DNA of 64,000 nt from a virus (lineage: Duplodnaviria; Caudoviricetes): positions 1 through 64,000 of IMG/VR virus record IMGVR_UViG_3300005805_000064; one strand, given 5' to 3'. Each line of letters opens with the position of its first letter. The first letter of the stretch is position 1. The notes under the pieces were generated by a model. That model saw only the letters and a list, made by a program, of their open reading frames with translations. It was not told the DNA's origin and made no database searches. This document shows positions 17,289-46,998 of the stretch, one piece after another. Made by a program: the position numbers and the translations under genes.

Positions 17289-17290
17289 AA

Positions 17291-17316: not shown

Positions 17317-17317
17317 G

Positions 17318-20989: not shown

Positions 20990-23900
20990 TCATGTATATT
21001 TTTTTCTGTAATAATCTTGTAGCCAAGACCATTCGTAAGATTTCTTCAATTCTTCGATATCGCCCATGACTGTATCGTAATATTCTACGGCATCTTTACT
21101 ACCCTGTATACAACTTTCGGCATAGAGGCCTTCTGCTACTGTAGTCCATATATTTAATCGTTCGCTAGCGATGTCACTATAATCGCTCTTGAGTTTGATC
21201 ACTTCTCTGAACGCTGTGCGCCAAGTGCTATAAGGGTCAGTATTGAAGTTAGCGACCCCCGATAGTATATCAACAGATTCATGGGGATCATCTAATGTGA
21301 AGTCAAGACCTACGCCAGTGTTATTCAATGTCAACTTCTTGTTATATGCGATCATGGCTTGGTGACCATATACAAGCCCGTTTAACGGGTTCTTGGCTGT
21401 GAAGATGTAATGCTTGGGTATCTGCAATCTATCTGGTTGCCAGTTGAAATCGAACTTCTCATCGATCTTGAGTTTAGCGAATACTGTAAACATCCAGGGT
21501 GTACTGCTTGCTTGTGCTGCGGCATGATATGCTGCTACACGACCATTCACACCATCTACTCTCACTACCTTGTTAGGCAGATGTTTAGTGATCTTCAACA
21601 AATGTTGATAGTTCTCTTCTGCGCAACTTTCACCATTGCTCAAGAAAACGATATCTAATGGTTTTGATTTAGCGACCCTCTTCGCTTTAGTTATATAAGG
21701 ATAATCATATAATTCGTTATCCACATATAGTTTCGCTTCTTTTGGTAGTGCAAGAACTGTGCCACCTGTGGTCAATATCTCAATATTCTTAGTATGATCT
21801 GCCCATAAACACACAGGTTCATCATAGTTCACCGTTATGTCCTTGTTGTCTGCTGTCTTAAAGATAGCATACGGGAAGTCATAATCTGTCTTGACCGCAT
21901 CGATATTAGTGTCATGGTCTAACACGAACTCGGGCGCAGGTAATCTCTTTGTCCTGATATGATTGTTATAATTGATCTTATCATAATCTTCTAACAGATT
22001 CATGTCATCGATCAAACTCTTTAATTTGTTGACATCGACTAAGAATGTGTCGCCGAACTTCTGCTTGTCGCTAGGGAACACATGTAGATTCTCTTTAGCG
22101 AATGGATCGCAGATATATGTCATATCGAAATTCTGATAATCGCACACAGAACTGCATACCCAGATATAATTTTCTTTGTTGGGTTTTACCTTCAACGATA
22201 TGTCGCGCAATGTCTCAAGGTAACTCTTTCTATATGGCACTACATGTACAGTCTTACCCGTAGACTTAGATAATAATTGCTCTTTGATCTTGTCTGTTTC
22301 ATTATTACCATGATCTATAAGATAGATATCGTACAAGCAATTCGTTGCCTTAGCAGCACGGTTCTTGACAAAGTTAAGATTGCTTAGATGCTCTATGATC
22401 TTGATGTACTTGGTGTCTTCAGGAAATGTGTCTTTGTTCAGCAAGTATGTGGTTCCCCAATGGCTCCACTGTGTGCCAAATATATGAACCATCTTCAATT
22501 GCCAAGGGTTAGGATAATACTTGAAGTCAAAGTTACTGTAATCAAGTTCGCTGTTCAATATCCATGCTAACTGTGTAGTGCTTCTATTCAAGCAACGATA
22601 GATCGTGTCTACCCAACTATTGAGATAGCGTGTCTTTTGTATGTTAGGGAATCTTTCTTGCAACTTCTCAAATCTTTCTTTAGCCTCGGCATTGCCGCGG
22701 TCGATCATGAAGATATCTGGCTGTATGAACAAGTCGGCTAGATATTCGTTCTCTGCTTTGACATCGCCCGTGACGAAATTATACTGAGTGAAGCCTTGCT
22801 TATATAGTTTGCTGTTGACGAAATATGTTTGTGTCTCTTTCGCTTCAGGGCTACCGAATACATGAACGAATCTTGCCTGTTCAATATTTGGACGCCAACT
22901 GAAATTGAAATTGCTGTAATTAATGTTCTTGTTCAACGCCCAGAACAATTCATCTGTGTGTTCATCTATCAAGTCTTCAAGTGTGGTCTGTATATAATAC
23001 TTAGGAATCTCTACGAACTCACTACGGTGTTTCTTTGTCACACGCTGTAGTTTGATGATCTCACCGTTGTTCTTTTTAGTTTTGTATATAGGGCCATCTG
23101 TATCATCGAACAATGTGCCGAACTGATAGATATATGGCGGGCTACCGGGATTAGGTCTCCAACTGAAATCAAAGTCATCAGTATTGATATTTTCTGGTAT
23201 GACCCAATTGGTCATATCGCTCACTACTTCTGCCGTGATATCATGTATGTACTTTTTCTCAGTAGCATTCTTGACATGATACTCTAATGTTGGTTCTACT
23301 TCGCCACTGTTCCACTGATTGCCGAACACATAGATATAGGGAGGACTAGTAGGATCAGGTCTCCAACTATAGTCAAAATCACTTCTGACTTTGATCAACT
23401 CACGCCACTTGTTGTAATCAGGTAATACATGCGCAGTTTGCGGCATATACTTACGCTGTGTAGCACCCTTGACATGATATTCTAATGTAGGTTCTATCTC
23501 AGCACTATTCCACTGATTACCGAACACATAGATATAAGGCTCGTCATGTGGATCAGGTACCCAACTATAATCGAAACTTGTGCGATCTACAGGTATGATC
23601 TCTGTGAATCGATCATAGTTCTGTGCTAACTGTGCTACGAATGAATTGTCATACTTGTAATCAGTAGCGCCGCTGACCCTGTACAATATAGTAGGCATCT
23701 TTTCTGCTGGATACTGAGTGTTACCGAAAGCATAGATATAAGGTTGTTCTTTGGGGTTCGGTCTCCAACTAAAGTCAAAACTTTCTTCAACGATAGGATG
23801 CAATATCTTATAGTTATTCTTGTTAGGCAATACGGTAGCAACAATGTCCTCTATATACTTGTATTCAGTAGCGCCGGGCACATGATATTCTAATGTAGGT

Positions 23901-26900
23901 TCTACGCTGGCTAAGTTCCATTGATTACCAAACACATAGATATATGGCGGAGCCTTAGGATCAGGCACCCAACCAAAATCAAAATCTGATTTGTCTACTG
24001 GTATCTTTTCTACCCAGTGTGTCATGTTAGTTGCTAACTTGGCTTTGACATCATCGACATACTTGATCTCAGTAGCATTCTCTACGACATAACGAACAGT
24101 AGGCATGACTTCGCCGGGATACTGAGTATTACCGAACACATAAATGAATGGATCATCGTATGGGTCAGGACGCCAGCTAAAGTCGAACTCACTTTCTACT
24201 ATAGGTATCAATATCTCAAACTTACTTTTGTCTTGTGCGACCTTAGCGATGATATCATGCACATACTTTATCTCAGTGGCACCAGGCACATGATATTCAA
24301 CTGTAGGTTCTTTCTCTGCTCTATTCCATTGATTACCGAACACATAGATATATGGTGGTGCTTCGGGATGCGGTACCCAACTGAAATCAAAACTATCAGG
24401 TTCTAATCTTATCTTTACTTTAAAATTCTTAGTATCAACTAATGTCTTTGCTTGTATGCCTTTGATATATTTCTTTTGAGTAGCATTATGTGTATGATAT
24501 ACAGGACCTCCTACATCATTCCATATCGTAGCAAACTCATAGTCATATGGCTCTTCTGTATTATCAGGATGCCAACTAAAATCAAAACTATCAACATCTA
24601 TGTTGCTAGGAATAGTCCAGTTAGTCTTATCAGATAGTTTGATAGCATATTGAACATCGACATATTTTGTCTCAGTAGCACCTTCGACAACATATCTAGG
24701 ACCATTAGTCTTTTGATGTTGCGTACCAAACTCATATATGAACGCAGGTTCAGTATCGTCTGGATGCCAACTAAAATCAAACTGTGAAACATCTAAACCT
24801 TCAGGTATCACATAATTTTTGATATCAGGCAGTCTAACTGCTCTCTGACTATCAATATACTTGACTTCTGTGGCTCCTTCAACCGTATATGTAGGTCCGC
24901 CTGTCTTCTGCCATTGTGTACCGAACTGATAGATATATGGCGGGCTACCCGGATCGGGCAACCATTCGAAATCGAATTTATCTAAATCTATATTATTGTC
25001 ATATCTCCATTTAGTCATGTCAGCAAATGTCTTTGCTACAACTTCGTTCACATATTTTAATTCCGTAGCACCCGGCACTACATATTTTACTGTGGGCATG
25101 ATCTCAGCACTATACTGCTCATTGCCGAACACATAGATATATGGCTGTTCTGTATTATCAGGATGCCAACTATAATCAAAACTTTTGATTTTTATATCAC
25201 ATAACTGCCAATATATAGATGTAGGTTTAGCGATTGCCTTATCGCTGTACATGTATTTGATCTCACTAGCACCTTCTACAACATATCTAGGACCGCCGTT
25301 CTTTTGATGCTGTGTGTTGAACTCGTAGATATAAGGTTGATCATGTGGATTAGGAATCCAACTAAAATCAAACTTGCTATCATCAATATTATCAGGTACT
25401 ATCCAATTTGTTTTATTCTGTGCTAACTTAGCAACGATATCTGTGATATATTTTTCTTTTATAGCACCAGGCATACGATATTCAATCGTAGGCATTTGTC
25501 TAGCATCATGATGCTGATTACCAAAGATGTAAATGTAAGGTTCTTCGGTATTATCGGGATGCCAACTGTAATCAAAATCTTCTATCTCATGATCTATTAA
25601 AATATTGAAATTGTTTTGATCAGGCAATCTTTTAGCGATTATACCCTCGACAATCTTGACTTCAGTTGCACCAGGAACGACATATCTTGGTCCACCGTTC
25701 TTTTGATGCTGCGTGCCAAACTCATATATGTAGTCAGGCTCCAATGGGTCGGGCCTCCATGTAAAATCAAAACTATTTTTGTCTACATTAGCAGGTATAT
25801 CCCATCGATCATATTCCGGCAATACAACTACATCATCAGTCATGTACTTTATCTCGGTAGCACCGGGCACAACATATTCAACTGTTGCTTTATACTTGTT
25901 ACTGATATACTTGTTACCCCAACGATAGATGTAAGGAGGATCATTGGGATTTGGTATCCAACTAAAATCAAACTTATTTTCGTCAATTGGCTGAGTGATT
26001 ATCCAATTGGTTTTATCTATATCTAATGTTGCTACGATGTCTGCGACATACTTGATTTCAACTGCGCCCGGTACTACATACTGTATAGTAGGCATTTCTT
26101 CTGCTTTGTATTGGTTGTTACCAAAAATATAGATATATGGTTGTTCACTGTTATCAGGGTGCCAACTATAGTCGAAATCTTTTATCTTTATATTTTGATT
26201 CACAAGCCAATTTGTTATGGTGGGCAACGCTCTTGCCTGTTGACTATCAATATATTTGATTTCAGATGCGCCGGGGACAACATATCTAGGACCACCTGTT
26301 CTCTGCCACTGCGTGCCGAACTCATAGATATAAGGAGGGTCTTTAGGATGGGGTACCCAGCCAAAGTCAAACGCGGATATATCGATATTTTCATTAACAT
26401 GCCAACATTCAGGCTTAATTCCTATCTTAGCCTTGATAGTGTCGATATATTTGTATTCACTGGCGCCTTCTACAACATATTGTAGCGTCGGCATAATCTC
26501 ACCTGAATAGTGCTGATTGCCAAACACATAGATATAAGGCTGTTCACTACTATCAGGATGCCAACTATAATCGAAATCTTCTACAGGAAAATCTGTAACA
26601 ACAGTGAATCTATCTTTTTGCGGCATATGCTTCACGGATTGTGAATCAATATACTTGATCTCACTAGCACCTTCTATGATATATCTTGGTCCATTTGTCT
26701 TTTGATGTTGCGTGCCAAACTCATAGATATAAGGTGGGTCGTTCGGATTAGGCTCCCAACTATAATCAAAGGTCTCATCATCGACACTAGAAGGTACTGA
26801 CCAGTTCGTCATGCATGGCTTACGGACTACACGGTCGTTCATGTATTTGTACTGAGTGGCGCCCTCTACTTTATAGGCTACGCTTACTTTGTCTCTTGGA

Positions 26901-27736
26901 TCATTATGCTGATTACCCCATGCATATATGTAAGGCGGTGCACCTGGATCTGGTCGCCATGTGTAATCCATGCCTGTGCAATCTTCATATATCTCAAATA
27001 ACTCAGGCTTTGACTTTAATCTTGCATACCATGCGTTGTCAATATACTTTCTTTCAATCGCGCCTTCTACATGATATTCAATAGTAGGCATCTCTTCAGC
27101 ACGGTAATGCTGGTTACCCCATACATAGATATAAGGCGGATGTGTGGGGTCCGGGACCCAGGCCCAGTCAAAACTATTATCATCTACATCATGTATTATT
27201 TTGTAATTATTTTTATTAGGTTTTAATTCTACAAATTTCTCCATGTACTTGTAGTCTGTAGCCCCGGGCACACGATATTCTATAGCAGGCTTGTGCGTAG
27301 CAGGAAAATATCTACAACCCCAGGCATAGATATAGGGAGGATCGGTTGGGTCCGGGTACCAACTGAAATCAAACAACTTCTCATCGACATCATAATTTAA
27401 TACCCAATTGTCAGACTTGCTCTCAGTCCTTAACAGTTGAGGAACATCTTGTCTGTATATTATATTACCGCCAGACTCTTTAGCACATAGCCAAGTACCG
27501 CTATCTTTATTATGCTGGCTGGGCCATACATTATCATGCTCGCCGGTCCATACTTGGTCGTCTGGTAAAAATTCAAAATCGAAATCCCAATCGAAACCTG
27601 TATAGTCGCAGAACTCGTTGACTATCCAAAAATGTTCAGTCGTTGCTAGTAATCTTGCTTCTTCTAAATTTTTAGCAGGCTGTTCTAATGGATGAACATT
27701 GGGTTTTTTGCCGAAGTAGAATACATCTCTTAACAT
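20990..27736 (-). CDS. 2248-aa protein: 22 tandem ~66-aa repeats plus degenerate GT-A-like modules
   Basis: Repeat consensus FD(F/Y)SWxP(D/N)PxxPPYIYxFGxQ...YxVxGATExKY; C-terminal module DIVFLSNGE...RVDGVNGRVAAYHAAA...WRTAFREVIKL resembles 48564-49517. Confidence 0.85.
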   Translation of the reverse strand: MLRDVFYFGKKPNVHPLEQPAKNLEEARLLATTEHFWIVNEFCDYTGFDWDFDFEFLPDDQVWTGEHDNVWPSQHNKDSGTWLCAKESGGNIIYRQDVPQLLRTESKSDNWVLNYDVDEKLFDFSWYPDPTDPPYIYAWGCRYFPATHKPAIEYRVPGATDYKYMEKFVELKPNKNNYKIIHDVDDNSFDWAWVPDPTHPPYIYVWGNQHYRAEEMPTIEYHVEGAIERKYIDNAWYARLKSKPELFEIYEDCTGMDYTWRPDPGAPPYIYAWGNQHNDPRDKVSVAYKVEGATQYKYMNDRVVRKPCMTNWSVPSSVDDETFDYSWEPNPNDPPYIYEFGTQHQKTNGPRYIIEGASEIKYIDSQSVKHMPQKDRFTVVTDFPVEDFDYSWHPDSSEQPYIYVFGNQHYSGEIMPTLQYVVEGASEYKYIDTIKAKIGIKPECWHVNENIDISAFDFGWVPHPKDPPYIYEFGTQWQRTGGPRYVVPGASEIKYIDSQQARALPTITNWLVNQNIKIKDFDYSWHPDNSEQPYIYIFGNNQYKAEEMPTIQYVVPGAVEIKYVADIVATLDIDKTNWIITQPIDENKFDFSWIPNPNDPPYIYRWGNKYISNKYKATVEYVVPGATEIKYMTDDVVVLPEYDRWDIPANVDKNSFDFTWRPDPLEPDYIYEFGTQHQKNGGPRYVVPGATEVKIVEGIIAKRLPDQNNFNILIDHEIEDFDYSWHPDNTEEPYIYIFGNQHHDARQMPTIEYRMPGAIKEKYITDIVAKLAQNKTNWIVPDNIDDSKFDFSWIPNPHDQPYIYEFNTQHQKNGGPRYVVEGASEIKYMYSDKAIAKPTSIYWQLCDIKIKSFDYSWHPDNTEQPYIYVFGNEQYSAEIMPTVKYVVPGATELKYVNEVVAKTFADMTKWRYDNNIDLDKFDFEWLPDPGSPPYIYQFGTQWQKTGGPTYTVEGATEVKYIDSQRAVRLPDIKNYVIPEGLDVSQFDFSWHPDDTEPAFIYEFGTQHQKTNGPRYVVEGATETKYVDVQYAIKLSDKTNWTIPSNIDVDSFDFSWHPDNTEEPYDYEFATIWNDVGGPVYHTHNATQKKYIKGIQAKTLVDTKNFKVKIRLEPDSFDFSWVPHPEAPPYIYVFGNQWNRAEKEPTVEYHVPGATEIKYVHDIIAKVAQDKSKFEILIPIVESEFDFSWRPDPYDDPFIYVFGNTQYPGEVMPTVRYVVENATEIKYVDDVKAKLATNMTHWVEKIPVDKSDFDFGWVPDPKAPPYIYVFGNQWNLASVEPTLEYHVPGATEYKYIEDIVATVLPNKNNYKILHPIVEESFDFSWRPNPKEQPYIYAFGNTQYPAEKMPTILYRVSGATDYKYDNSFVAQLAQNYDRFTEIIPVDRTSFDYSWVPDPHDEPYIYVFGNQWNSAEIEPTLEYHVKGATQRKYMPQTAHVLPDYNKWRELIKVRSDFDYSWRPDPTSPPYIYVFGNQWNSGEVEPTLEYHVKNATEKKYIHDITAEVVSDMTNWVIPENINTDDFDFSWRPNPGSPPYIYQFGTLFDDTDGPIYKTKKNNGEIIKLQRVTKKHRSEFVEIPKYYIQTTLEDLIDEHTDELFWALNKNINYSNFNFSWRPNIEQARFVHVFGSPEAKETQTYFVNSKLYKQGFTQYNFVTGDVKAENEYLADLFIQPDIFMIDRGNAEAKERFEKLQERFPNIQKTRYLNSWVDTIYRCLNRSTTQLAWILNSELDYSNFDFKYYPNPWQLKMVHIFGTQWSHWGTTYLLNKDTFPEDTKYIKIIEHLSNLNFVKNRAAKATNCLYDIYLIDHGNNETDKIKEQLLSKSTGKTVHVVPYRKSYLETLRDISLKVKPNKENYIWVCSSVCDYQNFDMTYICDPFAKENLHVFPSDKQKFGDTFLVDVNKLKSLIDDMNLLEDYDKINYNNHIRTKRLPAPEFVLDHDTNIDAVKTDYDFPYAIFKTADNKDITVNYDEPVCLWADHTKNIEILTTGGTVLALPKEAKLYVDNELYDYPYITKAKRVAKSKPLDIVFLSNGESCAEENYQHLLKITKHLPNKVVRVDGVNGRVAAYHAAAQASSTPWMFTVFAKLKIDEKFDFNWQPDRLQIPKHYIFTAKNPLNGLVYGHQAMIAYNKKLTLNNTGVGLDFTLDDPHESVDILSGVANFNTDPYSTWRTAFREVIKLKSDYSDIASERLNIWTTVAEGLYAESCIQGSKDAVEYYDTVMGDIEELKKSYEWSWLQDYYRKKYT
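23070..27410 (-). repeat. In-frame tandem repeat array (22 units, about 190-205 nt each)
   Basis: Counted by hand from FDxxW-x-P anchors; long (GNQ...PT) and short (GTQ-H/W-Q...GP) subtypes interleaved. Confidence 0.88.
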
Positions 27737-27749: not shown

Positions 27750-28397
27750 TCATAATTTTATTTGGAAATAATTATTTGCACATTCATGTAATGAATTATT
27801 TTGTATAAACTTAGTTAAAAAAGATGCAAGTAGCATGTTTTCATATGGACTAAAATGATTCGGGCTTGAATCACAATTAACCCAATTTTTGCGGGACTTG
27901 ATACCTAGTCTTCTACTTAATGAAAATAGATCCGGTTTAAACTTTGTACCATTTAATTCTGACGATATTATTTCAGTATCCTTAAAACAAAACAAGTGTA
28001 TCACATTTTTATCAGCAACAATGTTGTTTAGTTCGTTAAACCATTGCAGCATAGCCCATTGATTCACTTTTTCATTGTAAACATGTTTAAGATAAAACTC
28101 TCTTATTTCATTTTTTAAAGAGATACTTTCATCTGATCCAAAATAGGTTCGTTTGTCCCCTAACATCCTAGATTGTTCAGTATGACAAAATACGAATAAG
28201 TCTGTATTATTGAACTTTGTTCTGTGCTGATTTTTATATTGTATTAAATCTAATCTGCTAGGCCACCAAGAACAACCAGGAAAACCTTCTCCTGTTAATT
28301 CATATCCTAGATTGTTGGCTAGAATCAAGGGCCAATGCTCAGTCGGGCTAGTTCTATTAAAACAAAAACTATCACCGGTTATATAGATATATTTCAA
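27750..28397 (-). CDS. SGNH/GDSL-like hydrolase or acyltransferase
   Basis: ITGDSFC block I; DSSPNH block V. Confidence 0.65.
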   Translation of the reverse strand: MKYIYITGDSFCFNRTSPTEHWPLILANNLGYELTGEGFPGCSWWPSRLDLIQYKNQHRTKFNNTDLFVFCHTEQSRMLGDKRTYFGSDESISLKNEIREFYLKHVYNEKVNQWAMLQWFNELNNIVADKNVIHLFCFKDTEIISSELNGTKFKPDLFSLSRRLGIKSRKNWVNCDSSPNHFSPYENMLLASFLTKFIQNNSLHECANNYFQIKL

Positions 28398-29875
28398 CTT
28401 ACTACCTTTAAATCGTACAATTTTTCAAATCTGTCAGCGTCACTACGATCATTGACCATTGGCTCGCCGCGTATATTCAATGATGTATTGAGCAACATTG
28501 GACAGCCTGTTTTCTTATACCATTTTTCTAAGAGTTGTCGTATCCCAGATCGATCTTCTGGAACAGTCTGTACACGGCTAGTCCCGTCATGATGAACAAT
28601 AGCGGGATAAAGGTCAGGACGCTTGCAAGTAGCGATGACCTGCATATACCTACTATCATTCCAATTAACAGGCATATCGAAATATTGATGTACATACTCC
28701 TCAAGAATGACTGGAGCAAAGGGTCTAAATTTTTGTCTTCGTTTGATTTCATTGACTTTATCCTTTATCTCGGGTCCTCGAGGATCAGCCAATAAACTAC
28801 GGTTGCCTAATGCGCGAGGCCCGAATTCTGCTCTTCCGCTAGCAACACCTACCATCTTGTTCTTCTTAAGTTCTTTGATAACTTTATCTACGGGATATGG
28901 ACCTGCTATCTCATGACCTAAGAATGCGTCAGTCCAATTTATCTTTCTGCCATAACCCAATGCTGCTGCACCTAGGCTGTTACCTGCATCGCCCGGGTTA
29001 GGCATGATCCATATATCTTTAAAATATTTACCTAGCAATCGATTAGCGAGGCAGTTTAGTGCCACACCACCGCCATAAACTAAGTTTTTGCTGCTACCTA
29101 ATCTAAATGCTTTATGCATGACCTTCTCTATCAAAGTCTCGCACACTAACTGTGCGCTGCTTGCTATGTCCATGTCATCTGCTTTAGTTAAAAAATTATT
29201 AGGTTCGAGCCCTATGTGTAGGTTGTGTCTAAAATCTAACTCAAATAAATCAGACATATAATGACTGACGATTCTGTTGGCATGGCTAGGTTTACCATAT
29301 GCAGCCATTCCCATTAGGATATATTCTTCTTCGTTAGGTTTTAATCCAACACGCTGTGTCATGGCACTATAAAATAGACCTATACTATTAGGATACTTCT
29401 TGCTCCACAACTTAGTATAGTGCGCAGTACCATTCTTGTCATAACATGCATCCCATATGCTGATGCAATCCATCTCACCTATAGCATCGATGATGACTAC
29501 AGTGGCATGATCAAAGGGACTAGTCTGAAATCCTGCTGCGGCATGTGACTTATGATGAACATGAGTCTGTATAGGTCTGTCCCCTAACAGATCACATAGT
29601 TCAGAACCTATGATTCTCTTGACACTTAGCGGGCTTATAGTTTGTCCAGCGCGCCATTGCCTATAAGCCTTTAACCATGGTTTCTCATAATAGTTCAGTT
29701 TATAGGTCTCACCTGCATAGGATAATGCATCCTTGATGAGTCCTTCACAAAGGTTCTCGTCATGCTTCTTTTTGCTATATCTCTCGCTATGTCCGGCAAA
29801 CAGTATATTGCCATCGTCTGAGATAACGCTCAAAGCAGCATCATGAAATCCCGCGCTTATACCTATATGATTCAT
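28394..29875 (-). CDS. Carbamoyltransferase (NodU/CmcH/TobZ family)
   Basis: GFHDAA, HHKSHAAAG, IDAIGE, GGGVALNC, PGDAG, GRAEFGPRALGNRS, HHDGTSRVQTV, LLNTSLN; start moved to MNHIGIS. Confidence 0.95.
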   Translation of the reverse strand: MNHIGISAGFHDAALSVISDDGNILFAGHSERYSKKKHDENLCEGLIKDALSYAGETYKLNYYEKPWLKAYRQWRAGQTISPLSVKRIIGSELCDLLGDRPIQTHVHHKSHAAAGFQTSPFDHATVVIIDAIGEMDCISIWDACYDKNGTAHYTKLWSKKYPNSIGLFYSAMTQRVGLKPNEEEYILMGMAAYGKPSHANRIVSHYMSDLFELDFRHNLHIGLEPNNFLTKADDMDIASSAQLVCETLIEKVMHKAFRLGSSKNLVYGGGVALNCLANRLLGKYFKDIWIMPNPGDAGNSLGAAALGYGRKINWTDAFLGHEIAGPYPVDKVIKELKKNKMVGVASGRAEFGPRALGNRSLLADPRGPEIKDKVNEIKRRQKFRPFAPVILEEYVHQYFDMPVNWNDSRYMQVIATCKRPDLYPAIVHHDGTSRVQTVPEDRSGIRQLLEKWYKKTGCPMLLNTSLNIRGEPMVNDRSDADRFEKLYDLKVVS

Positions 29876-30753
29876 TGACAAACTACACCTTCTATTTGAT
29901 CTGCCCAATATTTATGATGGTTGATACCGGGATGTGATCTATCTCTAGCCAAATCTAAATTTGTTTCTATATCTTCAGGACTAGTCCACTCCGGCAAAAG
30001 AGTAATATGTTCGAATTTCATTAATTTCATCATTTGATAAGTGGGCCTATCCCAGGATGATATGAATGTTTTTATGTCTTTAAGTTTAGACAAATAATCT
30101 AGATTATATATGTCGTCCTTCATTCTTCTTATTAATTCTGGTTCGGGAGTATATTTGAAGTATGACTTTGTTTGTATGTTATAATCCTCTAAATCTTTTT
30201 CTTGTTGCATTAACAAATTACATAACTTTATAGACTGGTTATTAATCTTATTAATAGCACACAGTTGTCTTCCATACGAAGGCATCAAAAATACCGCTCG
30301 GTCTATTTTCATATGTCTACTGATTATTGAAAAAACATCGCAAGTTGCTTTTATACTGCTTCCGGAAATTCCGAAATTATATGAGTTTAAATTATGTTTT
30401 TTTGAAAGAAGCTTATGCCACAATTTATCAGACGGTAACCCTACCCCAAAGGTATAACTACAACCAAACGCTGCTAATTCTAAATGACTATTTTGATTTA
30501 TTTCGATATCTCTAAAACCTAATGAGTTCAGCACATAATCAAAGTCACCATGTTTCCAGTTTTCTGCATTATCTTTTTCTGCTACTGTCCACATAGGTAC
30601 CTGCTTTTTTAATTCACCATTTGCTAATATTAAATCAGGTCTGGCTGTAACCGGAGTATAATTAGAGAGATAATTTAAACTACACCCGTGTAGGTTTAAT
30701 TGCAGCAATTCAGTTTGATTCTCAAATCCTACATTCAGTCTTTTTAATGCCAT
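29872..30753 (-). CDS. SGNH-like protein
   Basis: NSLGFRD, AFGCSYTFG, GISGSS, ARDRSHPG. Confidence 0.72.
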   Translation of the reverse strand: MALKRLNVGFENQTELLQLNLHGCSLNYLSNYTPVTARPDLILANGELKKQVPMWTVAEKDNAENWKHGDFDYVLNSLGFRDIEINQNSHLELAAFGCSYTFGVGLPSDKLWHKLLSKKHNLNSYNFGISGSSIKATCDVFSIISRHMKIDRAVFLMPSYGRQLCAINKINNQSIKLCNLLMQQEKDLEDYNIQTKSYFKYTPEPELIRRMKDDIYNLDYLSKLKDIKTFISSWDRPTYQMMKLMKFEHITLLPEWTSPEDIETNLDLARDRSHPGINHHKYWADQIEGVVCQ

Positions 30754-30862: not shown

Positions 30863-32044
30863 TTATTCACCTTTTTTAATTAACTTCTCGTCTACAGTTT
30901 TTGTCACATACAACTTATCTATGGCTGAGATAGATCCACAAGTTTCTACGCAATACAATAGTCTTCCCTCTTCTACTGTTTTTGCTTTCCAACCATCTAG
31001 AAAGAAAGGACCAAAATAAGGACCCATCAATATTTCATATATAGAGTTTTTTCTCAGATCAAGTTTATCTTTGCCCATCTCTTGCACTTTTTTATTGAAC
31101 TGCCAACGACTATAGGTGCTACTAAATTGCCCGAACACTCCACCTAAGAAACAACATGGCAGCAAATGTCCAGTAGCCGACACATATATTTCCTGTACAT
31201 ATTGATCTAATGATTTGCAGCGAATGCCGGAACTCTTTGCTAAATTTCTACTAAATTCAGTTAACTCAGGTACCGGTTCTACCATAGCATGTTTAAAATC
31301 AATCTTATAATCAGATGGAATATTAGACCTTTCACCTGTAAAGTTTACAGGATATATAGTATAATCAAAAGTTCCATCTCGTTTATATACATTCATTCCT
31401 TGCTGCTTTCCCTGATACTCACCGAACCCCATTGGTCTTTTCTCTGCAAAATGAAACCCTAATTTAGACGCTAATTGTCTAGCCTCTTCTACCTGATGTT
31501 GATTATGTTCGAATACCAAGAATTCCCATATACCGAAAGCACCTGTTTTGGCATATGCTTCCATGTTCGCAAATAATCTATCCCACTTAACACCGCGTCT
31601 GTATATATGGTTTGTATCTTCTAAACCATCCACACTGAATACTACTGCCGGCTGATAAAATGCATGACTTAAGTTTTTCTCTCTAGGAACACTAGCAAAA
31701 AATTTTCCTACTTCTGACCAATATTCTGGATTGCGCATACCGCCATTAGTTCGTACTTGTTGTGCGATATATTTTTTACTGTTAGATTGAAAATATTCTA
31801 ATATAGGTATTAAATCTAATGCCATACCTGGATCGCCGACATTACCGCAAAAGTTAATACCTATGATATTTTCTACGAACTTTTTAGGAAAGAAATTTTT
31901 TATATCATCTATAGTAAGTTCTGTGATTTCTAGATTAGGACTTACTGGACCTCCTGCAAGATTTCTGCTACATGCAGGACAACTAGCATTGCATCTTGAT
32001 GTAAGTTCTATGTGAAGCCTACCTATATTATTAATATTATACAT
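30863..32044 (-). CDS. Radical SAM enzyme with C-terminal SPASM/twitch domain
   Basis: CNASCPAC near the N-terminus; LLPCCFLG...CVETC at the C-terminus. Confidence 0.92.
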   Translation of the reverse strand: MYNINNIGRLHIELTSRCNASCPACSRNLAGGPVSPNLEITELTIDDIKNFFPKKFVENIIGINFCGNVGDPGMALDLIPILEYFQSNSKKYIAQQVRTNGGMRNPEYWSEVGKFFASVPREKNLSHAFYQPAVVFSVDGLEDTNHIYRRGVKWDRLFANMEAYAKTGAFGIWEFLVFEHNQHQVEEARQLASKLGFHFAEKRPMGFGEYQGKQQGMNVYKRDGTFDYTIYPVNFTGERSNIPSDYKIDFKHAMVEPVPELTEFSRNLAKSSGIRCKSLDQYVQEIYVSATGHLLPCCFLGGVFGQFSSTYSRWQFNKKVQEMGKDKLDLRKNSIYEILMGPYFGPFFLDGWKAKTVEEGRLLYCVETCGSISAIDKLYVTKTVDEKLIKKGE

Positions 32045-33293
32045 CAGTTTTTCCTATAATACTTTCCATCATGTTGGCGACTTTTTTAAAACGATTTTTC
32101 CAATCATCTTTTCTTCTCACATCTAAATCATTTAAAAATTGATAAAGATTATATACCTGCTCTTTATTCACTTCACTAGACTGCATCTTTGCTCGGATAC
32201 CGTATACAGTATCCTGATATGATAACATATTGTTGTCTTTAATAACATCGATAAACTTGTCTAAATCTTCTAGAAATAAATCTCCGAAATGATAAACATC
32301 AAAGCAATTAGGAACCACAACCGTATTCCAATGAAAAGTGATATGCTTGATTTTTTTCCATTCTTTTACTTTTTCGGCGAGCAGATAAAAACTAGGCATT
32401 GACAAGGCAGTGATAGTCGAATGTATTTGAACCTCAACACCCGCAGTATCTAGCATCGTCAGAATGTTCTTTTCAGCCCACTCCATATTCAATCCATATC
32501 TAACATATTCTAAATCAGGTCCCCAGCAGTCTATGCTGCATACTACCATCATACTTTTTATTTTCTTCTCATAAATTAATTTTCGCACCTTATCGATTTT
32601 TGATTTGAACTTACCGGGCTCATGATTTAAATTGCTAAAAATATGCCAGTTTAATTCTGGACAAGGATGCTTGTCAAAAAAATCTAAGCACATGTCAAAC
32701 TCTTCTTGATAGAAAGGTTCACCACCTAGCATTTTAAACATCACTAATTTACTACCATGTTCTGCCATATATTCAAAAAATTTATCTCTATAGGTAGTGT
32801 AGTTTTTTCTATCATCGTTTAGCCATTCGCTATAATTTGTATTAAATTTGCTAGGACCATATTTTTTCACTTCATGTTCGATTTGACTGCTAAATGTAGG
32901 TCTACAATATACACAAGATTGGTTGCACAGATTACTGAAATATACTTCAAGTATTGTAGGGGTAACTTTGATCGCATTGGGATCTGTTTCTAATTCAGGC
33001 GGAAGGATAGTAGTGTCTTTGTTTGTAAATGCGGTTCTATCGCTTAACCCACCTGCCATTTCGATGTCTCTACAATATTCACACCCATTACCAGGCCATT
33101 CTCCTTTAAGCATCTTGGCTCTATCTAGCATCTTTCCGGGTAAATTATGAAAGTCTTTAATCGTGTCGGCATCAAATTTATAGTGTTTGCATCTGTGACA
33201 ACTGGCTGTTGTACCGGTATTTAAATAGATTGAACTCCATGCCCACTTATACTGACATGCTGCATTGTTTTGTATAGGAAATATTTTACTCAT
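32037..33293 (-). CDS. Radical SAM enzyme, N-terminal twitch-like domain (CxxKW type)
   Basis: CQYKW...ASCHRC...CEYC; CNQSCVYC; GGEP. Confidence 0.92.
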   Translation of the reverse strand: MSKIFPIQNNAACQYKWAWSSIYLNTGTTASCHRCKHYKFDADTIKDFHNLPGKMLDRAKMLKGEWPGNGCEYCRDIEMAGGLSDRTAFTNKDTTILPPELETDPNAIKVTPTILEVYFSNLCNQSCVYCRPTFSSQIEHEVKKYGPSKFNTNYSEWLNDDRKNYTTYRDKFFEYMAEHGSKLVMFKMLGGEPFYQEEFDMCLDFFDKHPCPELNWHIFSNLNHEPGKFKSKIDKVRKLIYEKKIKSMMVVCSIDCWGPDLEYVRYGLNMEWAEKNILTMLDTAGVEVQIHSTITALSMPSFYLLAEKVKEWKKIKHITFHWNTVVVPNCFDVYHFGDLFLEDLDKFIDVIKDNNMLSYQDTVYGIRAKMQSSEVNKEQVYNLYQFLNDLDVRRKDDWKNRFKKVANMMESIIGKTDV

Positions 33294-34045
33294 TTATATT
33301 TGTCCATGATAGGTCTGATGATATTTTGATAATACACTTCGTGTCCTTTTTCATTAGTATGATTGTCTACGCATTTATAAATGTTTTTGTTAGCCCAATC
33401 ATTATTGGTCCCGCTGTAATCATAACTTTGAATATCTAGAAATTGGTGTTTGATTATGCCGGTATCGTTTTGCAAATGTTTTATGATATCTGGGTCATAC
33501 CAATACATAGGCATGGAAAACTCAAAAGAAAATCCTCTAAGTTCACAGTATTGTTTGGCTGCTAGAAGAGACATCAATCCTATGTTTCTTCCTATCTCAT
33601 CCTGATATAAATGCATTATATACATCTTTTTAGCCAAAAAATATTGCTCAAGGTGCGGATCCATCTTTCCCTGCCATGCGGGATCCCAATTATGCGACAA
33701 TACCCATGAGTGCAGTTCTCCCCTATTTCCTGATGCTTCTAACCTATCAGGACTAGTACCTGCAAAAAGCACTAGTGTTTTTAATTTAGAATGATTGTCC
33801 TTTATTCCGAAATTCATTAAGTCGCGGAACATAGCCGGATTAGAATGCCCGCATCTAGCAAGATTTATGACAGGTATGTTATATTCTTTACTTAGCAAAC
33901 TTGCCCAGCAATATTCACTCGGAAAATTATCAGGAGTTCGTTGTCCTACTACCTGCTTAGTGTCAGGATCGATATAAAAAACACGATCTTGGCATCCATG
34001 ACCATATGTATAACTATCTCCAAAAACTACAATACGCTCTATCAT
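33290..34045 (-). CDS. SGNH-like protein
   Basis: VFGDSYTYG, NLARCGHSN, DNHTNEKGH. Confidence 0.75.
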   Translation of the reverse strand: MIERIVVFGDSYTYGHGCQDRVFYIDPDTKQVVGQRTPDNFPSEYCWASLLSKEYNIPVINLARCGHSNPAMFRDLMNFGIKDNHSKLKTLVLFAGTSPDRLEASGNRGELHSWVLSHNWDPAWQGKMDPHLEQYFLAKKMYIMHLYQDEIGRNIGLMSLLAAKQYCELRGFSFEFSMPMYWYDPDIIKHLQNDTGIIKHQFLDIQSYDYSGTNNDWANKNIYKCVDNHTNEKGHEVYYQNIIRPIMDKYK

Positions 34046-34046
34046 T

Positions 34047-35300
34047 TTATTTCAAACCTATATATTTTGCTAAATTATCGGGCTTATTTCTGCGTACAGT
34101 ATATTGCTCAAAAAAGATATCGCTATCTCTGCGCATCTCGGCTTGATTTTCTCTGATAAACCCTTCATCTAAGAACTTGATCAATCTATTGCAATGTTCA
34201 AATTCTACGGGCAATAAATCATCTTTGATGCTATCATAGAATTTCTGATATTTATTGATGTAAAAATCACGCTCTTGTCTAGTCAAACAAGCGAATCCTT
34301 GAAACTCGGGCTTGTCTACCATATTGATAGAGATATATGGTTTGATCTTGGTGCGGCTTCTGATATCTATGATATCTCTGTACATCTGATCTAGGCTCTG
34401 TAATGCTATGGCGCTGACTGTAGTGCTGATGCTAAACTCTTTGACTGTGCTATTACCCAGTCGTTCTATATTAGTCAACCATTCACTATAAACCATTCCC
34501 TCTCGTATGAATTCAGCCGTTTCACCTGCACTTTCATTACTGATATTCATGCGCAGGTTATTCAAGCCTTTTATCTTATCAAAGAACCTATCCATGACTA
34601 CTGGCTTCTGACATAGGTTACTATGTATGACAGTTTCTATGTTAGGATTAACCCTTGTCATCATAGCGAACAACTTGAATACTTCTTCATGCATCAATGG
34701 CTCACCGCCGCTGACACGAATGCTTTCAAGACCTTCCATGACTGTCTCAAACCAACTCCAAAATAGTTCCATATGTGGAGGCTTGATCATCTCTTCTAGT
34801 TCAGCCATATCTTTCTGATAGTGCCTGCGATCATCAGTCTTGATATCAGTATACACACCGTTGACTCGTATATCATTGATCCAACTTGTGCTAAATTGCG
34901 GGCTGCAATAACTACATGCTAGATTACATGTGTTGTTAAACGCTAACTCTAACGCTTTTGGTTTGAATATGTAATTTGGATTCTTGTAATCTTCTGCTGT
35001 GAGATGATCCTTGAAACTGAGGCTCTTGCGTGTTCTATCGCTAGTCAATCCCAAATTCTCATATCGCCAGCAACTATCACATGCAGGAGGCTGCTCTCCT
35101 GCTAACATGCGCTTTTGTTGCTCACGCTTCTCTGCTGGATTATAGAATGTGTCTACTGTATCACCGACTTGGAGGAAGGGAGTATAATGGCAACTAGCGA
35201 TCTTGCCGCTATAGACCCATATACTTGCTTCATGGAACTTTGCTAGACAAAATGTAGGGCTAGTCTCATTCCTAATTTTTATTAACTTATTCAGTTCCAT
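34047..35300 (-). CDS. Radical SAM enzyme, N-terminal twitch-like domain (CxxKW type)
   Basis: CLAKF...ASCHY...CDSCW; CNLACSYC; GGEP. Confidence 0.92.
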   Translation of the reverse strand: MELNKLIKIRNETSPTFCLAKFHEASIWVYSGKIASCHYTPFLQVGDTVDTFYNPAEKREQQKRMLAGEQPPACDSCWRYENLGLTSDRTRKSLSFKDHLTAEDYKNPNYIFKPKALELAFNNTCNLACSYCSPQFSTSWINDIRVNGVYTDIKTDDRRHYQKDMAELEEMIKPPHMELFWSWFETVMEGLESIRVSGGEPLMHEEVFKLFAMMTRVNPNIETVIHSNLCQKPVVMDRFFDKIKGLNNLRMNISNESAGETAEFIREGMVYSEWLTNIERLGNSTVKEFSISTTVSAIALQSLDQMYRDIIDIRSRTKIKPYISINMVDKPEFQGFACLTRQERDFYINKYQKFYDSIKDDLLPVEFEHCNRLIKFLDEGFIRENQAEMRRDSDIFFEQYTVRRNKPDNLAKYIGLK

Positions 35301-36610
35301 CAGTAGTCAAACTCATCATTTAAATTATTCTTAGTCATGTAATCTTGCATGTTTTTATGCTCAGGGAAAACAGCAAAGAAGTTTTCTTTTCTAATACTAT
35401 CTAGTTTTCTGGTAATCCTACTAAAGAACTTCAGACTTTCATGTAAATTTGGTTCTCTGTTGACATCGCTGTACATAAAATTAATAGCATTTTCATATCT
35501 ACTTATTGCGCTGGAATGTACGCTGTATCTTTTCAACCATTCGATGTGACTTAAAAACAGTAATTCTATCTCACGCTTTTTCCATTCCGGAATGTTTTTC
35601 AAGCAGTAATAAGGAGGGGTATCTAATGGGTTGATCATAATATTGTCATGACCTATTAATCCCAATTCTACCCATTCTTTATGAAAGTCTACGAGGTTGT
35701 GGGAGTTCGGCCAACTCAATGTATACGATATATTAAATTGAACATGCGGCACTAATGCTAGCATGGACAGTCTATTACTGACCACCGTAGGCCAATCAGT
35801 GCCGCTACGCCAGTACTCTCCCCTGCTATGGCTTCCATCAAGGCTAGCGTTGACACTGACATTTTTAAATTTTTTCCAATATTCGATAACATTATCATAA
35901 TTCTTTAACTTCAACAAACTAAAGTTAGTGTTATATCTAATCTCAATGTCTGTATTACCTATCTCAATCAACTTGTTCAATACTTCATAATGTTCTTTTT
36001 GCATCAGTGGTTCACCACCTGCAAAATATATGATCTCAGCCGTGCTTAGATGGGGTATTATTTCTTCTAATGCTTGTACTTCAGTCGAACCTGGATATTG
36101 AAAACCATCATCAATTTCTAGTTTTTCAGTTCGATTATATAACTTTCTGTGGTCGCTGACCCAACTAGTGCTGTAATGAGGGGCGCAGCTGCGGCACTTC
36201 AAGTTGCAAAGGTTGTTGAACCGTACATCAATATAATATAGTTTATGTTCATCTACGGTGCCGTCGCTCTTAGTGCTAGCCACTATCTCTTGTATAGCAG
36301 GATTCTCTTCAAAAAATCTTTTATTGTAAGAATTATAAAAAGCGTCCCCTAATTCAGCGCGGTTATTACAAATACTACAGTTAGGATGTTGTTCACCTTT
36401 TAAAAATTGTAATCTCAAAGTTTTAGTATTCTCGTTATTCCATATCTCTTTCAATGTGTTTTGTTTTAGACTACCTAGTTCTGCTTTCCAATCGTATACA
36501 CAACAAGGTTTTACATCTCCCGGCGGACCTACATATTGATGAACCCATGGAAATATACAAAAAGTTTTGCTGGATTTTGCCATTTCTAAAGGATTAAAAT
36601 TATTTTCCAT
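35300..36610 (-). CDS. Radical SAM enzyme, N-terminal twitch-like domain (CxxPW type)
   Basis: CIFPW...KPCC...CSIC; CNLKCRSC; GGEP. Confidence 0.92.
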   Translation of the reverse strand: MENNFNPLEMAKSSKTFCIFPWVHQYVGPPGDVKPCCVYDWKAELGSLKQNTLKEIWNNENTKTLRLQFLKGEQHPNCSICNNRAELGDAFYNSYNKRFFEENPAIQEIVASTKSDGTVDEHKLYYIDVRFNNLCNLKCRSCAPHYSTSWVSDHRKLYNRTEKLEIDDGFQYPGSTEVQALEEIIPHLSTAEIIYFAGGEPLMQKEHYEVLNKLIEIGNTDIEIRYNTNFSLLKLKNYDNVIEYWKKFKNVSVNASLDGSHSRGEYWRSGTDWPTVVSNRLSMLALVPHVQFNISYTLSWPNSHNLVDFHKEWVELGLIGHDNIMINPLDTPPYYCLKNIPEWKKREIELLFLSHIEWLKRYSVHSSAISRYENAINFMYSDVNREPNLHESLKFFSRITRKLDSIRKENFFAVFPEHKNMQDYMTKNNLNDEFDY

Positions 36611-37895: not shown

Positions 37896-38989
37896 ATTAA
37901 TTTTATAATCTCGGTCAATACTTTTTCATGATTAGTATTTCTAGTTTGATCTATAGCAGTAAATAATTTCTGTGCGAGGGGAAACAATTCGGACTTATCT
38001 TCTCCGGTCATTAACTGCGTCTTGAATTTGTCTTGTATCTCTAAAAATTTAGGATCATTAGTAGGCAATATATTATCAAACACTCGCTTTAAAATGATTT
38101 GCTTACTCTTCAACGGAATTACATCTACGCTTTGTTCTTCTGGATAAACTAATTTATTCATATGTACGCTGTCTAGATTTGGATATGAAGTATATATCCA
38201 GTTATACCAATCTGCAAACCACAATGCATTCATCCATGTAAGAGCATATTGAAAGTTAATCTTAAATCTATGATCTTGTAGTTGGTAGTAGCGGTCTATA
38301 TTATCCTTGACTTCTGCCCATTTACCATTAGATCGGATGTATTCAAATATATCATCCGTGCCGTCTATACTGAATCCTAATCCAACAAATCTAAATATCC
38401 TCGAATACTCTTGCAATTTAGGTTTATACATAGTACCATTAGTAAGCATTGAAATCGCAGTAGTACTAGCATAAGGTTGTTCAGATAACCAATCTAAAAA
38501 TTCAAATATCAAAGGATTGATTAGTGGTTCCCCACCTAATATATTAATATTAATATATGGATAAGTGTTTTGTTTCAGTGCTGTTTTTATAAATTCTAAT
38601 TTACTAGGTCCCTGTTCACTTATAATTCTGTATAATTTTTGAGAGTTTTTACTTTCATTAGCGATTTGAGTGCTATATCTAGGACTACAGTAAGTACATC
38701 TTAAATTACATAGATTATCAAAAGATACAGTTATTCTTAGTTCGTCATCTCGTATAGTGTCTTCTGCTTCTTTTCTTTGGCTGAATGGATTACCATTTTT
38801 TTCAAGATCGATGCAGTACTTGCAATTTGTTTCAATATCCATTTTAGATAATTGATCATAATATTCGTCTACAGTAGTAGCATCAATATTAGTTTTAAAA
38901 TAGCAACAGGGGCGGTAGGGCTTTTCATCATTGCTAATGAAAAGCCACTGCTTGTGTGCCTTGCAATTTTTATATGGGGTTAAATCCAT
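37892..38989 (-). CDS. Radical SAM enzyme, short divergent N-terminal twitch-like domain
   Basis: CKAHKQW...RPCC...CKYC; CNLRCTYC; GGEP. Confidence 0.9.
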   Translation of the reverse strand: MDLTPYKNCKAHKQWLFISNDEKPYRPCCYFKTNIDATTVDEYYDQLSKMDIETNCKYCIDLEKNGNPFSQRKEAEDTIRDDELRITVSFDNLCNLRCTYCSPRYSTQIANESKNSQKLYRIISEQGPSKLEFIKTALKQNTYPYININILGGEPLINPLIFEFLDWLSEQPYASTTAISMLTNGTMYKPKLQEYSRIFRFVGLGFSIDGTDDIFEYIRSNGKWAEVKDNIDRYYQLQDHRFKINFQYALTWMNALWFADWYNWIYTSYPNLDSVHMNKLVYPEEQSVDVIPLKSKQIILKRVFDNILPTNDPKFLEIQDKFKTQLMTGEDKSELFPLAQKLFTAIDQTRNTNHEKVLTEIIKLI

Positions 38990-46991: not shown

Positions 46992-46998
46992 ATATTCC

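What the first reader, a model, noticed from the sequence alone, without database searches (positions are those of the whole stretch)
20990..27736. 2248-aa protein with 22 aromatic-rich tandem repeats derived from a glycosyltransferase-like module: scaffold or substrate of the island
Seen: 22 units of ~64-68 aa (FDFSWxPDPxxPPYIYxFGxQ..., two interleaved subtypes), one degenerate module at the N-terminus and about four GT-A-like modules at the C-terminus. The last module aligns by eye with 48564-49517 (RVDGVNGRVAAYHAAA vs RVDNVKGSDAAHKAA; WRTAFREVIKL vs WRAGFREGVKM), but its DxD position reads FAK, and the others read NSE and SSV. The repeat anchor resembles the FDFNWQPD segment of that module. 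Inference: a catalytically dead, amplified GT fragment acting as a multi-site scaffold or carbohydrate binder for the enzyme array, or a polyvalent substrate offering Trp/Tyr/His for radical SAM chemistry.
Basis: partly seen in the sequence, partly recalled or inferred. Interest (0 to 1): 0.82.

Follow-up and report, generated by a model that had tools for sequence, protein, structure and literature searches.

The report
Giant repeat protein from glycosyltransferase pieces
A jumbo phage encodes a 2,248-residue protein made of five glycosyltransferase-like modules that all lack the usual metal-binding motif, plus 22 tandem copies of one amplified piece of that fold; the family is very abundant in environmental phages and has no known function.

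Summary
ORF 20990-27736(-) is intact. It has a mini GT-A-like N-module, 22 tandem 64-68-aa beta repeats (14 long, 8 short) and a truncated module. These are followed by three full GT-A-fold domains (VIA-align Z 10-12).

The repeats are homologous to the segment after the 'DxD strand' of the protein's own modules. The last domain is homologous to the stand-alone GT at 48564-49517 and to Ralstonia phage RsoM2USA ORF348, both of which keep DGD.

All five modules lack DxD, but the terminal one is not decaying. It is 60-70% identical across more than 5,000 protein clusters, and Lys replaces the second Asp in 226 of 227 family members. That points to re-purposing rather than death.

Repeat number ranges from 3 to 30 in relatives and turns over fast. 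It does not track radical SAM gene number (rho -0.06, n=11). RsoM2USA has the radical SAM enzyme but no repeats, so the 'polyvalent radical SAM substrate' idea is disfavoured.

The tightest partner is an O-carbamoyltransferase, directly upstream in 48 of 53 loci.

Best reading (about 0.4): a re-purposed, metal-independent GT-A-derived glycan-binding or glycan-building platform in a late glycan island.

First-stage notes of this scan flagged the same family in other genomes.

The parts
20990..27736 (-). Whole gene, 2248 aa. No signal peptide or TM segment is evident at the N-terminus; pI 5.0.
27398..27736 (-). N-terminal mini GT-A-like module (aa 1-113). It starts MLRDVFYFGKKP, which is conserved in all full-length relatives; its 'DxD' position reads NEF.
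   Evidence: (Z 5-6 to GT-A folds)
23000..27397 (-). 22 tandem 64-68-aa beta repeats (aa 114-1579), core FD(F/Y)SWxPDPxxPPYIYxFG...Y...GATExKY...NW. 14 are long-type and 8 short-type.
22727..22975 (-). Truncated module C0 (aa 1588-1670), NFNFSWRPN...FVHVFG; its 'DxD' position reads NKN.
22346..22726 (-). GT-A-fold domain C1 (aa 1671-1797); its 'DxD' position reads NSE.
   Evidence: (Z about 10, MobA/IspD/GT-A)
21935..22336 (-). GT-A-fold domain C2 (aa 1801-1934); its 'DxD' position reads SSV.
   Evidence: Z about 10
21665..21934 (-). Beta-rich linker domain (aa 1935-2024); no fold assigned.
20993..21664 (-). Terminal GT-A-fold domain C3 plus helical tail (aa 2025-2248). It is homologous to 48564-49517 and to RsoM2USA ORF348.
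   Evidence: (Z 11-12)
21473..21481 (-). F2086-A2087-K2088 at the DxD position of C3. The Lys is fixed in 226 of 227 family members.
28394..29908 (-). O-carbamoyltransferase (Carbam_trans_N + Carbam_trans_C), the conserved upstream partner. Here it is separated from the giant gene by a 215-aa ORF (27750-28397).
48564..49517 (-). Stand-alone 317-aa paralogue of C3 with an intact DGDN motif.
30863..48564 (-). Array of 12 radical SAM genes, 11 of them above the NCBIfam N_Twi_rSAM cut-off, interspersed with 2 SGNH-like genes and 1 SDR gene.

Best explanation
SHOWN. The gene encodes a chain of GT-A-fold modules. One sub-domain, the ~65-aa segment that follows the 'DxD strand', has been amplified in tandem into an acidic, aromatic-rich all-beta array. 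The array sits between a conserved mini-module at the N-terminus and three conserved full GT-A domains at the C-terminus. The terminal domain descends from a stand-alone DxD glycosyltransferase, seen as a 233-aa gene beside one radical SAM gene and the 317-aa GT in Ralstonia jumbo phage RsoM2USA. In the giant family the DxD is replaced by F-A-K and the Lys is fixed.

INFERRED. The protein is not a decayed enzyme. It is a re-purposed, metal-independent GT-A derivative, with the Lys taking the place of the divalent cation at the diphosphate or anionic ligand site. It binds, and perhaps transfers, a sugar or glycan. The repeats form a multivalent rod that holds a long carbohydrate acceptor, or repeated sites on a glycoconjugate. 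The protein works as a complex with the O-carbamoyltransferase encoded immediately upstream, inside a late-gene island next to the tail and fibre genes. That island also supplies sugar-nucleotide enzymes, SGNH proteins, an SDR and the N-twitch radical SAM tailoring enzymes. Repeat number, which evolves quickly, would set the length or valency of what is held.
For: Architecture and fold: AF2 models have pLDDT 88.6 and 86.2. Three domains match GT-A and nucleotidyltransferase folds at Z 10-12, and the whole C-terminal region matches multi-GT-A proteins such as Mimivirus R699, K4CP and LH3.

Repeat origin: repeat profiles hit the post-DxD segment of modules C0, C1 and C3. Distant relatives keep the same ends but amplify a longer, 90-120-aa version of the module.

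Ancestry: synteny with RsoM2USA ORF353-348, where ORF348 keeps DGD.

Constraint: C3 is 60-70% identical across more than 5,489 clusters, and A2 has many invariant residues. Lys is present in 226 of 227 members, while 120 of 120 GT317 relatives and 35 of 35 bacterial or stand-alone relatives keep D[GA]D[NT].

Carbohydrate context: the carbamoyltransferase lies directly upstream in 48 of 53 loci, with a gap of 4-21 nt in about 38. UDP-Glc dehydrogenase, an epimerase and an aminotransferase are in the window. Bacterial relatives of the module sit beside GT2 and GT4 genes.

Not DNA-binding: the repeats are acidic, pI 4.8.
Against: No ligand, activity or partner was tested; everything about function is inference from sequence, predicted fold and gene order. 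No canonical GT-A catalytic signature is present in any module. The conserved aromatic residues of the repeats may simply be a hydrophobic core rather than sugar-binding platforms. I could not inspect model coordinates, so the rod shape and surface exposure are unverified. The target glycan or glycoconjugate is unknown. The fixed Lys could serve a structural role instead of a ligand-binding one.
Confidence: 0.4

Rival explanations
1. Pure pseudo-enzyme scaffold. All modules are catalytically and ligand-inert. The repeats are protein-protein docking sites that assemble the island's enzymes (radical SAM, SGNH, SDR, carbamoyltransferase) into a megacomplex.
For: All five modules lack DxD. Inactive GT-A domains that serve structural roles are known in LH3, ColGalT1 and CHPF, which are among the structural matches. 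The gene is always near radical SAM genes.
Against: Repeat number (3-30) does not track radical SAM number (rho -0.06, p 0.87, n=11). Repeats are not positionally orthologous between lineages and differ by 2x2 units even from a relative ~90% identical to the window protein, which argues against dedicated docking sites. The fixed Lys and the very high conservation of C3 suggest a ligand site.
Confidence: 0.17
2. Virion-associated fibre or decoration protein. The conserved N-terminus anchors it to the particle, the repeat rod projects outward, and the GT-A-derived C-terminal domains act as lectins.
For: The island abuts tail and fibre genes: a Peptidase_G2 IMC protein at 52794-53744, and a 3144-aa ORF sharing a segment with virion protein RsoM2USA ORF361. 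Variable repeat number is typical of fibres. The repeats are predicted to be all-beta.
Against: The C-terminal end is the most conserved part of the protein, the opposite of receptor-binding tips. The RsoM2USA virion proteomics list does not include ORF348, although only 10 abundant bands were analysed. The tight operon coupling is to an enzyme, the carbamoyltransferase.
Confidence: 0.15
3. Polyvalent substrate. The repeats present Trp, Tyr or His side chains that the radical SAM enzymes cross-link or otherwise modify, in the manner of a giant RiPP-like precursor.
For: Eleven N-twitch radical SAM paralogues lie nearby. The repeats are aromatic-rich with an invariant W and Y. A conserved 33-aa peptide ending in DPFIY, which resembles the repeat core, lies in the island.
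Against: The repeats are predicted as compact folded beta units (pLDDT above 90), whereas characterised radical SAM peptide maturases act on unstructured cores. There is no numerical relation with radical SAM genes. RsoM2USA has the orthologous radical SAM enzyme with no repeat protein. Distant relatives carry repeat units without PYIY. The rest of the island is sugar-type chemistry.
Confidence: 0.07
4. DNA-modifying enzyme. The GT-like modules glycosylate hypermodified bases of phage DNA.
For: A thymidylate-synthase-family gene (7015-7863) and a DNA-methyltransferase-like gene lie in the window. Phage GTs often act on DNA (cited in PMC12619734).
Against: The protein is acidic (repeats pI 4.8, C-terminal region 5.8). 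The gene lies in the late, tail-proximal region in both the window and RsoM2USA. No kinase or hydroxymethylase coupling to the gene was seen across the 80 loci.
Confidence: 0.05

Closest known systems
Unnamed phage and bacterial GT-A family represented by window 48564-49517, RsoM2USA ORF350 and ORF348, and genes of Bdellovibrionales and Rhodobacterales
   Same: The terminal domain is a sequence homologue (E 4e-10 and 1e-19). It shares the LSxxE, RVxGVxG, NxxNGLxYG and WRxxFRE motifs.
   Different: All 155 stand-alone members examined keep D[GA]D[NT]; the giant family has xxK. The stand-alone members have no repeats and no extra modules.
Multi-GT-A-domain proteins with inactive modules (human LH3 accessory domain, ColGalT1 N-terminal GT domain, CHPF in the CHSY3-CHPF complex) and bifunctional polymerases (E. 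coli K4CP, Pasteurella HS2, Mimivirus R699)
   Same: These are the best whole-model structural matches and share the arrangement of several tandem GT-A domains in one chain. Some of their domains lack catalytic motifs and serve structural roles (established knowledge of LH3 and ColGalT1).
   Different: None has a tandem array of an amplified GT-A sub-domain. All keep at least one DxD-bearing active domain, whereas here none of the five modules has DxD.
Metal-independent GT-A enzymes (for example GT14 C2GnT-L, where basic side chains replace the cation)
   Same: GT-A fold without DxD, with a conserved basic residue (Lys2088) at the metal site.
   Different: This is an analogy from recalled knowledge only. 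There is no sequence relation, the Lys position differs from that in C2GnT-L, and activity was not tested.
WbdD-WbdA O-antigen chain-length ruler (a coiled coil of variable length between enzyme modules)
   Same: Conserved enzyme-like ends separated by a spacer whose length varies between lineages, in a glycan-synthesis context.
   Different: The spacer here is a beta-repeat array, not a coiled coil. There is no homology and no evidence for chain-length control.

Membership tests
GT-A fold nucleotide-diphospho-sugar transferase superfamily | Rossmann-like alpha/beta/alpha GT-A fold | tested here: met
   Three domains score Z 10-12, rmsd 2.8-3.3 A over 120-143 residues, against B4GALNT1, WrtF, SunS, SpsA, IspD and MobA. 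The N-module scores Z 5-6.
GT-A fold nucleotide-diphospho-sugar transferase superfamily | DxD (or variant) metal-binding motif at the end of beta4 | tested here: not met
   The positions read NEF, NKN, NSE, SSV and FAK. Relatives keep DGD or DAD.
GT-A fold nucleotide-diphospho-sugar transferase superfamily | Sugar-transfer activity from an activated donor | not testable with these tools
   Needs biochemistry.
Stand-alone phage and bacterial GT family of 48564-49517 / RsoM2USA ORF348 | Significant sequence homology and shared motifs (LSxxE, RVxGVxG, NGLxYG, WRxxFRE) | tested here: met
   BLASTP E 4e-10; tblastn 1e-19; invariant columns in A4.
Stand-alone phage and bacterial GT family of 48564-49517 / RsoM2USA ORF348 | D[GA]D[NT] motif | tested here: not met
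   FAK in the window; xxK in 226 of 227 giant-family members.
RiPP-type precursor / radical SAM peptide substrate | Unstructured core peptide(s) whose occurrence depends on the maturase | tested here: not met
   The repeats are predicted folded (pLDDT above 90). There is no count correlation. The orthologous radical SAM enzyme in RsoM2USA exists without repeats.
RiPP-type precursor / radical SAM peptide substrate | Post-translational modification detectable on the protein | not testable with these tools
   Needs mass spectrometry.
Phage tail fibre / receptor-binding protein | Conserved N-terminal anchor with a variable distal (C-terminal) tip | tested here: not met
   The C-terminal 289 aa are the most conserved part, at 60-70% identity.
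Phage tail fibre / receptor-binding protein | Presence in virions | not testable with these tools
   No cultured member exists. The RsoM2USA proteomics covered only 10 bands.
Known repeat or domain families (Pfam, PHROGs, PDB, BFVD) | Match of the 66-aa repeat to a described domain | tested here: inconclusive
   No hit in Pfam or PHROGs. No PDB match by Foldseek or VIA-align for the repeat part, although that part was barely tested. BFVD matches only two uncharacterised homologues.

The most novel reading that the evidence does not exclude
The protein is a molecular ruler for a phage-made glycan. A polymer grows between the N-terminal module and the C-terminal GT-A-derived modules along the repeat rod. 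The co-translated carbamoyltransferase caps the chain when it reaches the far end. The repeat number (3-30) would then encode glycan length, and lineages would tune it by adding or deleting pairs of repeats.
Probability: 0.08. Interest if true: 0.9.

Novelty: new variant of a known kind. Interest (0 to 1): 0.62.

Why it matters
The family is among the commoner large proteins of an abundant lineage of uncultured 300-530-kb aquatic and soil phages. There are more than 5,000 clusters at 90% identity, yet it appears in no domain database and has no described function.

It shows an unusual evolutionary route. A small DxD glycosyltransferase lost its metal site, fixed a Lys there, gained extra modules and amplified a sub-domain of its own fold up to 30 times. 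In parallel, the neighbouring single radical SAM gene expanded to a dozen paralogues and a carbamoyltransferase joined the operon.

If the island builds a complex glycan on virions or in infected cells, it would be one of the largest glycan-tailoring investments known in a bacteriophage. That would be comparable to the glycosylation machinery of giant viruses. The repeat protein is the obvious handle for finding the product.

Tried and rejected
- Pfam, PHROGs and NCBIfam on the whole protein and on neighbours gave nothing for the giant protein, the 317-aa GT, the 215-, 293-, 267- and 270-aa ORFs or the 33-aa peptide.
- PDB sequence search found only a chance Shedu hit at E 0.003.
- Megablast against cultured phages found no match. 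tblastn found only RsoM2USA.
- ESM Atlas gave no usable hit for the repeats, and only unnamed viral clusters for the 317-aa GT.
- hhalign of the repeat alignment against a mixed C3/GT317 alignment was not significant (E 0.016, probability 3%), although it aligned the expected FDFxW segment. The homology claim therefore rests on the HMM hits to modules C0, C1 and C3.
- A search for forms longer than 3,935 aa, such as fusions, found none.
- The DPFIY peptide was not found in RsoM2USA (best E 0.09).
- Literature searches on jumbo phage plus radical SAM, GT and carbamoyltransferase, on N-terminal twitch radical SAM, and on virion glycosylation found no paper describing this family.
- I rejected a DNA-binding rod because of the acidic pI. 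I rejected 'one repeat per radical SAM enzyme' because the counts do not correlate.
- I could not cut the models into single domains or read coordinates. Rod geometry and residue exposure are therefore not established.


Full report
WHAT IS THERE

The window is the first 64 kb of an 85-kb IMG/VR virus record that CheckV rates at 22% complete. This implies a genome of roughly 390 kb. All long ORFs in the region are on the minus strand. ORF 20990-27736(-) translates without stops to 2248 aa. Pfam and PHROGs give no significant hit for it.

THE REPEATS

A motif scan finds 22 anchors FD(F/Y)SWxP(D/N)P spaced 64-68 aa apart, from aa 122 to aa 1522. In a MAFFT alignment of the 22 units the mean column identity is 54%, and D10, W13, P15, Y24 and Y41 are invariant. 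At DNA level the copies are 60-77% identical with 192-204-nt spacing. They are therefore old, diverged duplications, not a recent expansion or an assembly artefact.

Fourteen units are of a long type (FGNQxYxxExMPTxEY) and eight are of a short type (FGTQHQKxGGPRY). The two types alternate between units 4 and 13.

Over 978 repeats from 76 relatives, F9, D10, S12, W13, P15, Y24, Y41, K50, Y51 and W66 are 84-100% conserved. The repeat region is acidic, with pI 4.8.

THE MODULES

An AlphaFold2 model of aa 1590-2248, built on 64 sequences, has pLDDT 88.6 and pTM 0.76. VIA-align finds three GT-A / nucleotidyltransferase-fold domains at aa 1671-1797, 1801-1934 and 2025-2165. These score Z 10-12 against B4GALNT1, WrtF, SunS, SpsA, IspD, MobA and TarI. 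Foldseek ranks multi-GT-A proteins first for the whole model: Mimivirus R699, chondroitin polymerase K4CP and LH3 (E 4e-6 to 1e-5).

A second model covers aa 1-382 (pLDDT 86.2, pTM 0.68). Its aa 1-105 match GT-A folds only weakly (Z 5-6), although all of the top 50 hits are GT-A or nucleotidyltransferase folds. It is followed by four all-beta repeats of four short strands each, with pLDDT above 90. The repeat part has no match in PDB. In BFVD it matches only two uncharacterised homologues from uncultured phages.

At the position where GT-A enzymes carry DxD, the five modules read NEF, NKN, NSE, SSV and FAK.

ORIGIN OF THE REPEATS

The repeat HMM hits the protein's own modules, in each case the segment right after the 'DxD strand':
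- aa 1602-1638, iE 2e-7
- aa 1729-1770, iE 7e-8
- aa 2092-2113, iE 7e-6
- aa 51-80, iE 3e-3

A profile-profile comparison with a mixed C3/GT317 alignment was not significant, although it aligned the same segment.

More distant family members (P0212, P0262, P0257, P0245) keep the same N-terminal and C-terminal modules. They instead carry 8-13 tandem units of 90-120 aa, which look like a longer slice of the same module. The amplification of GT-A-derived units between conserved ends is therefore a family trait, achieved with different unit lengths in different lineages.

ANCESTRY

The only cultured phage with a relative is Ralstonia jumbo myovirus RsoM2USA. Its ORF353-352-350-349-348 are collinear with window genes 50650, 49850, 48564 (the 317-aa GT, 41% identical), one radical SAM gene, and the last module of the giant protein (29% identical, E 1e-19).

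All 11 N-twitch radical SAM genes of the window are paralogues of that single ORF349. ORF348 is a 233-aa stand-alone protein that keeps DGD. RsoM2USA has no repeats. In that phage the cassette lies next to the tail sheath gene (ORF359) and a proteomically confirmed virion protein (ORF361), according to PMC8504454. ORF361 shares a segment with the window's 3144-aa ORF.

IS THE TERMINAL MODULE DEAD?

The evidence argues that it is not:
- All 120 close relatives of the 317-aa GT have DGDN.
- All 35 bacterial or MAG-borne relatives have D[GA]D[NT]. These are mostly Bdellovibrionales and Rhodobacterales, and in two inspected loci they sit beside GT2 or GT4 genes.
- In the giant family, 226 of 227 sequences have Lys where the second Asp was. 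The tripeptides are FAK 207, NGK 7, NAK 6, WGK 3, PAK 2, FSK 1 and FAE 1.
- The last 289 aa are 60-70% identical across more than 5,489 clusters at 90% identity, with long runs of invariant residues.

A decaying pseudo-enzyme would not fix one replacement residue while the flanking positions vary. I read this as neo-functionalisation. A metal-independent ligand site is one possibility, by analogy with metal-independent GT-A enzymes; that analogy rests on my own knowledge and was not tested.

DYNAMICS AND LINKAGE

I fetched 80 viral loci. Full-length relatives start with M(L)RDVFYYGKKP and carry about 6 to 30 repeats; loci cut at a contig end show as few as 3. The window protein is not the extreme. 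No form longer than 3,935 aa was found.

Repeat order is collinear only with a relative ~90% identical to the window protein, and even that one has two extra pairs of repeats. With more distant relatives there is no one-to-one correspondence.

Radical SAM counts per record against repeat number are 9/9, 6/11, 11/23, 20/11, 2/21, 11/9, 7/12, 10/22, 17/13, 7/30 and 12/22. Spearman rho is -0.06 with p 0.87. Every record has radical SAM genes, usually adjacent to the giant gene.

The most constant neighbour is an O-carbamoyltransferase. It is upstream in 48 of 53 loci that have enough flank, and in about 38 of them it ends only 4-21 nt before the start codon of the giant gene. RsoM2USA has none in its cassette. 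The giant architecture, the loss of DxD and the carbamoyltransferase therefore appear together.

CONTEXT IN THE WINDOW

The surrounding genes include UDP-glucose dehydrogenase, AdoMet decarboxylase, a kinase/cytidylyltransferase-like protein, an epimerase, an aminotransferase, two SGNH-like proteins, an SDR and the radical SAM array. Upstream of these lie a Peptidase_G2 IMC-domain protein and the 3144-aa ORF. This is carbohydrate-type chemistry placed beside tail and fibre genes.

INTERPRETATION

The shown facts are the architecture, the ancestry, the fixed Lys, the copy-number dynamics and the carbamoyltransferase linkage. The functional reading is inference.

I rate as most likely (0.4) a re-purposed GT-A-derived glycan-binding or glycan-building platform. 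It would work with the carbamoyltransferase in a late glycan island, with the repeats forming a multivalent carbohydrate-holding rod.

The rivals are:
- an inert protein-docking scaffold (0.17)
- a virion fibre or decoration (0.15)
- a polyvalent radical SAM substrate (0.07)
- a DNA-modifying enzyme (0.05)

A glycan-length ruler is the most novel reading that the evidence does not exclude (0.08).

NOVELTY

No database family and no paper describes this protein. First-stage notes of this scan flagged the same family in several other genomes, but none had been followed up.

I class it as a new variant of a known kind, namely multi-GT-A proteins with non-canonical modules. What sets it apart is the tandem amplification of a fold sub-domain and a family-wide DxD-to-Lys switch.

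Noticed in passing
window 30763-30861 (-): A 33-aa basic ORF ending ...KRLKELKKRDPFIY lies between the last radical SAM gene and the 293-aa and carbamoyltransferase genes. It is conserved at 52-65% identity, with an invariant RDPFI(Y) tail, in five other phage records (L011, L073, G001, G003, G005). It was absent from two other large records and from RsoM2USA. No family match was found. Its C-terminus resembles the repeat core D/E-P-(Y/F)-I-Y.
   Followed up: partly
window 30863-48564 (-): Eleven of the twelve radical SAM ORFs exceed the cut-off of NCBIfam NF033640 (N_Twi_rSAM, twitch domain at the N-terminus). All are paralogues of the single RsoM2USA ORF349. Array size in relatives ranges from 2 to 20. 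None of 14 control bacterial or archaeal genomes has a member above the cut-off.
   Followed up: partly
window 17266-17621 (-): ARAGORN calls a permuted tmRNA with tag peptide ANDDVYALAA.
   Followed up: partly
P0212, P0262, P0257, P0245 (metagenomic proteins): These distant members of the same superfamily have the same N- and C-terminal modules. Their 8-13 tandem units are 90-120 aa long (DYTDFDFxWxP...HCFTM / LHVWPT...GGDTMYVN). This is an independent amplification of a longer slice of the module.
   Followed up: partly
L127 (Tateyamaria armeniaca) 3049-10727; L100 (Bacteriovoracaceae) 5371-9640: Bacterial DxD-bearing relatives of the 317-aa GT lie next to GT4 or GT2 genes. In Tateyamaria they sit between two caspase-like (Peptidase_C14) proteins with Sel1/TPR or peptidoglycan-binding domains.
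   Followed up: no
window 49850-50653 and 50650-51462 (-): Two paralogous ~270-aa ORFs without any family match are conserved with RsoM2USA ORF352 and ORF353. They belong to the ancestral cassette together with the GT, the radical SAM gene and the GT-like gene.
   Followed up: no
window 54553-63987 (-): A 3144-aa ORF runs to the window end. It shares a ~106-aa segment (33% identity) with RsoM2USA ORF361, a 2541-aa protein confirmed in virions.
   Followed up: no
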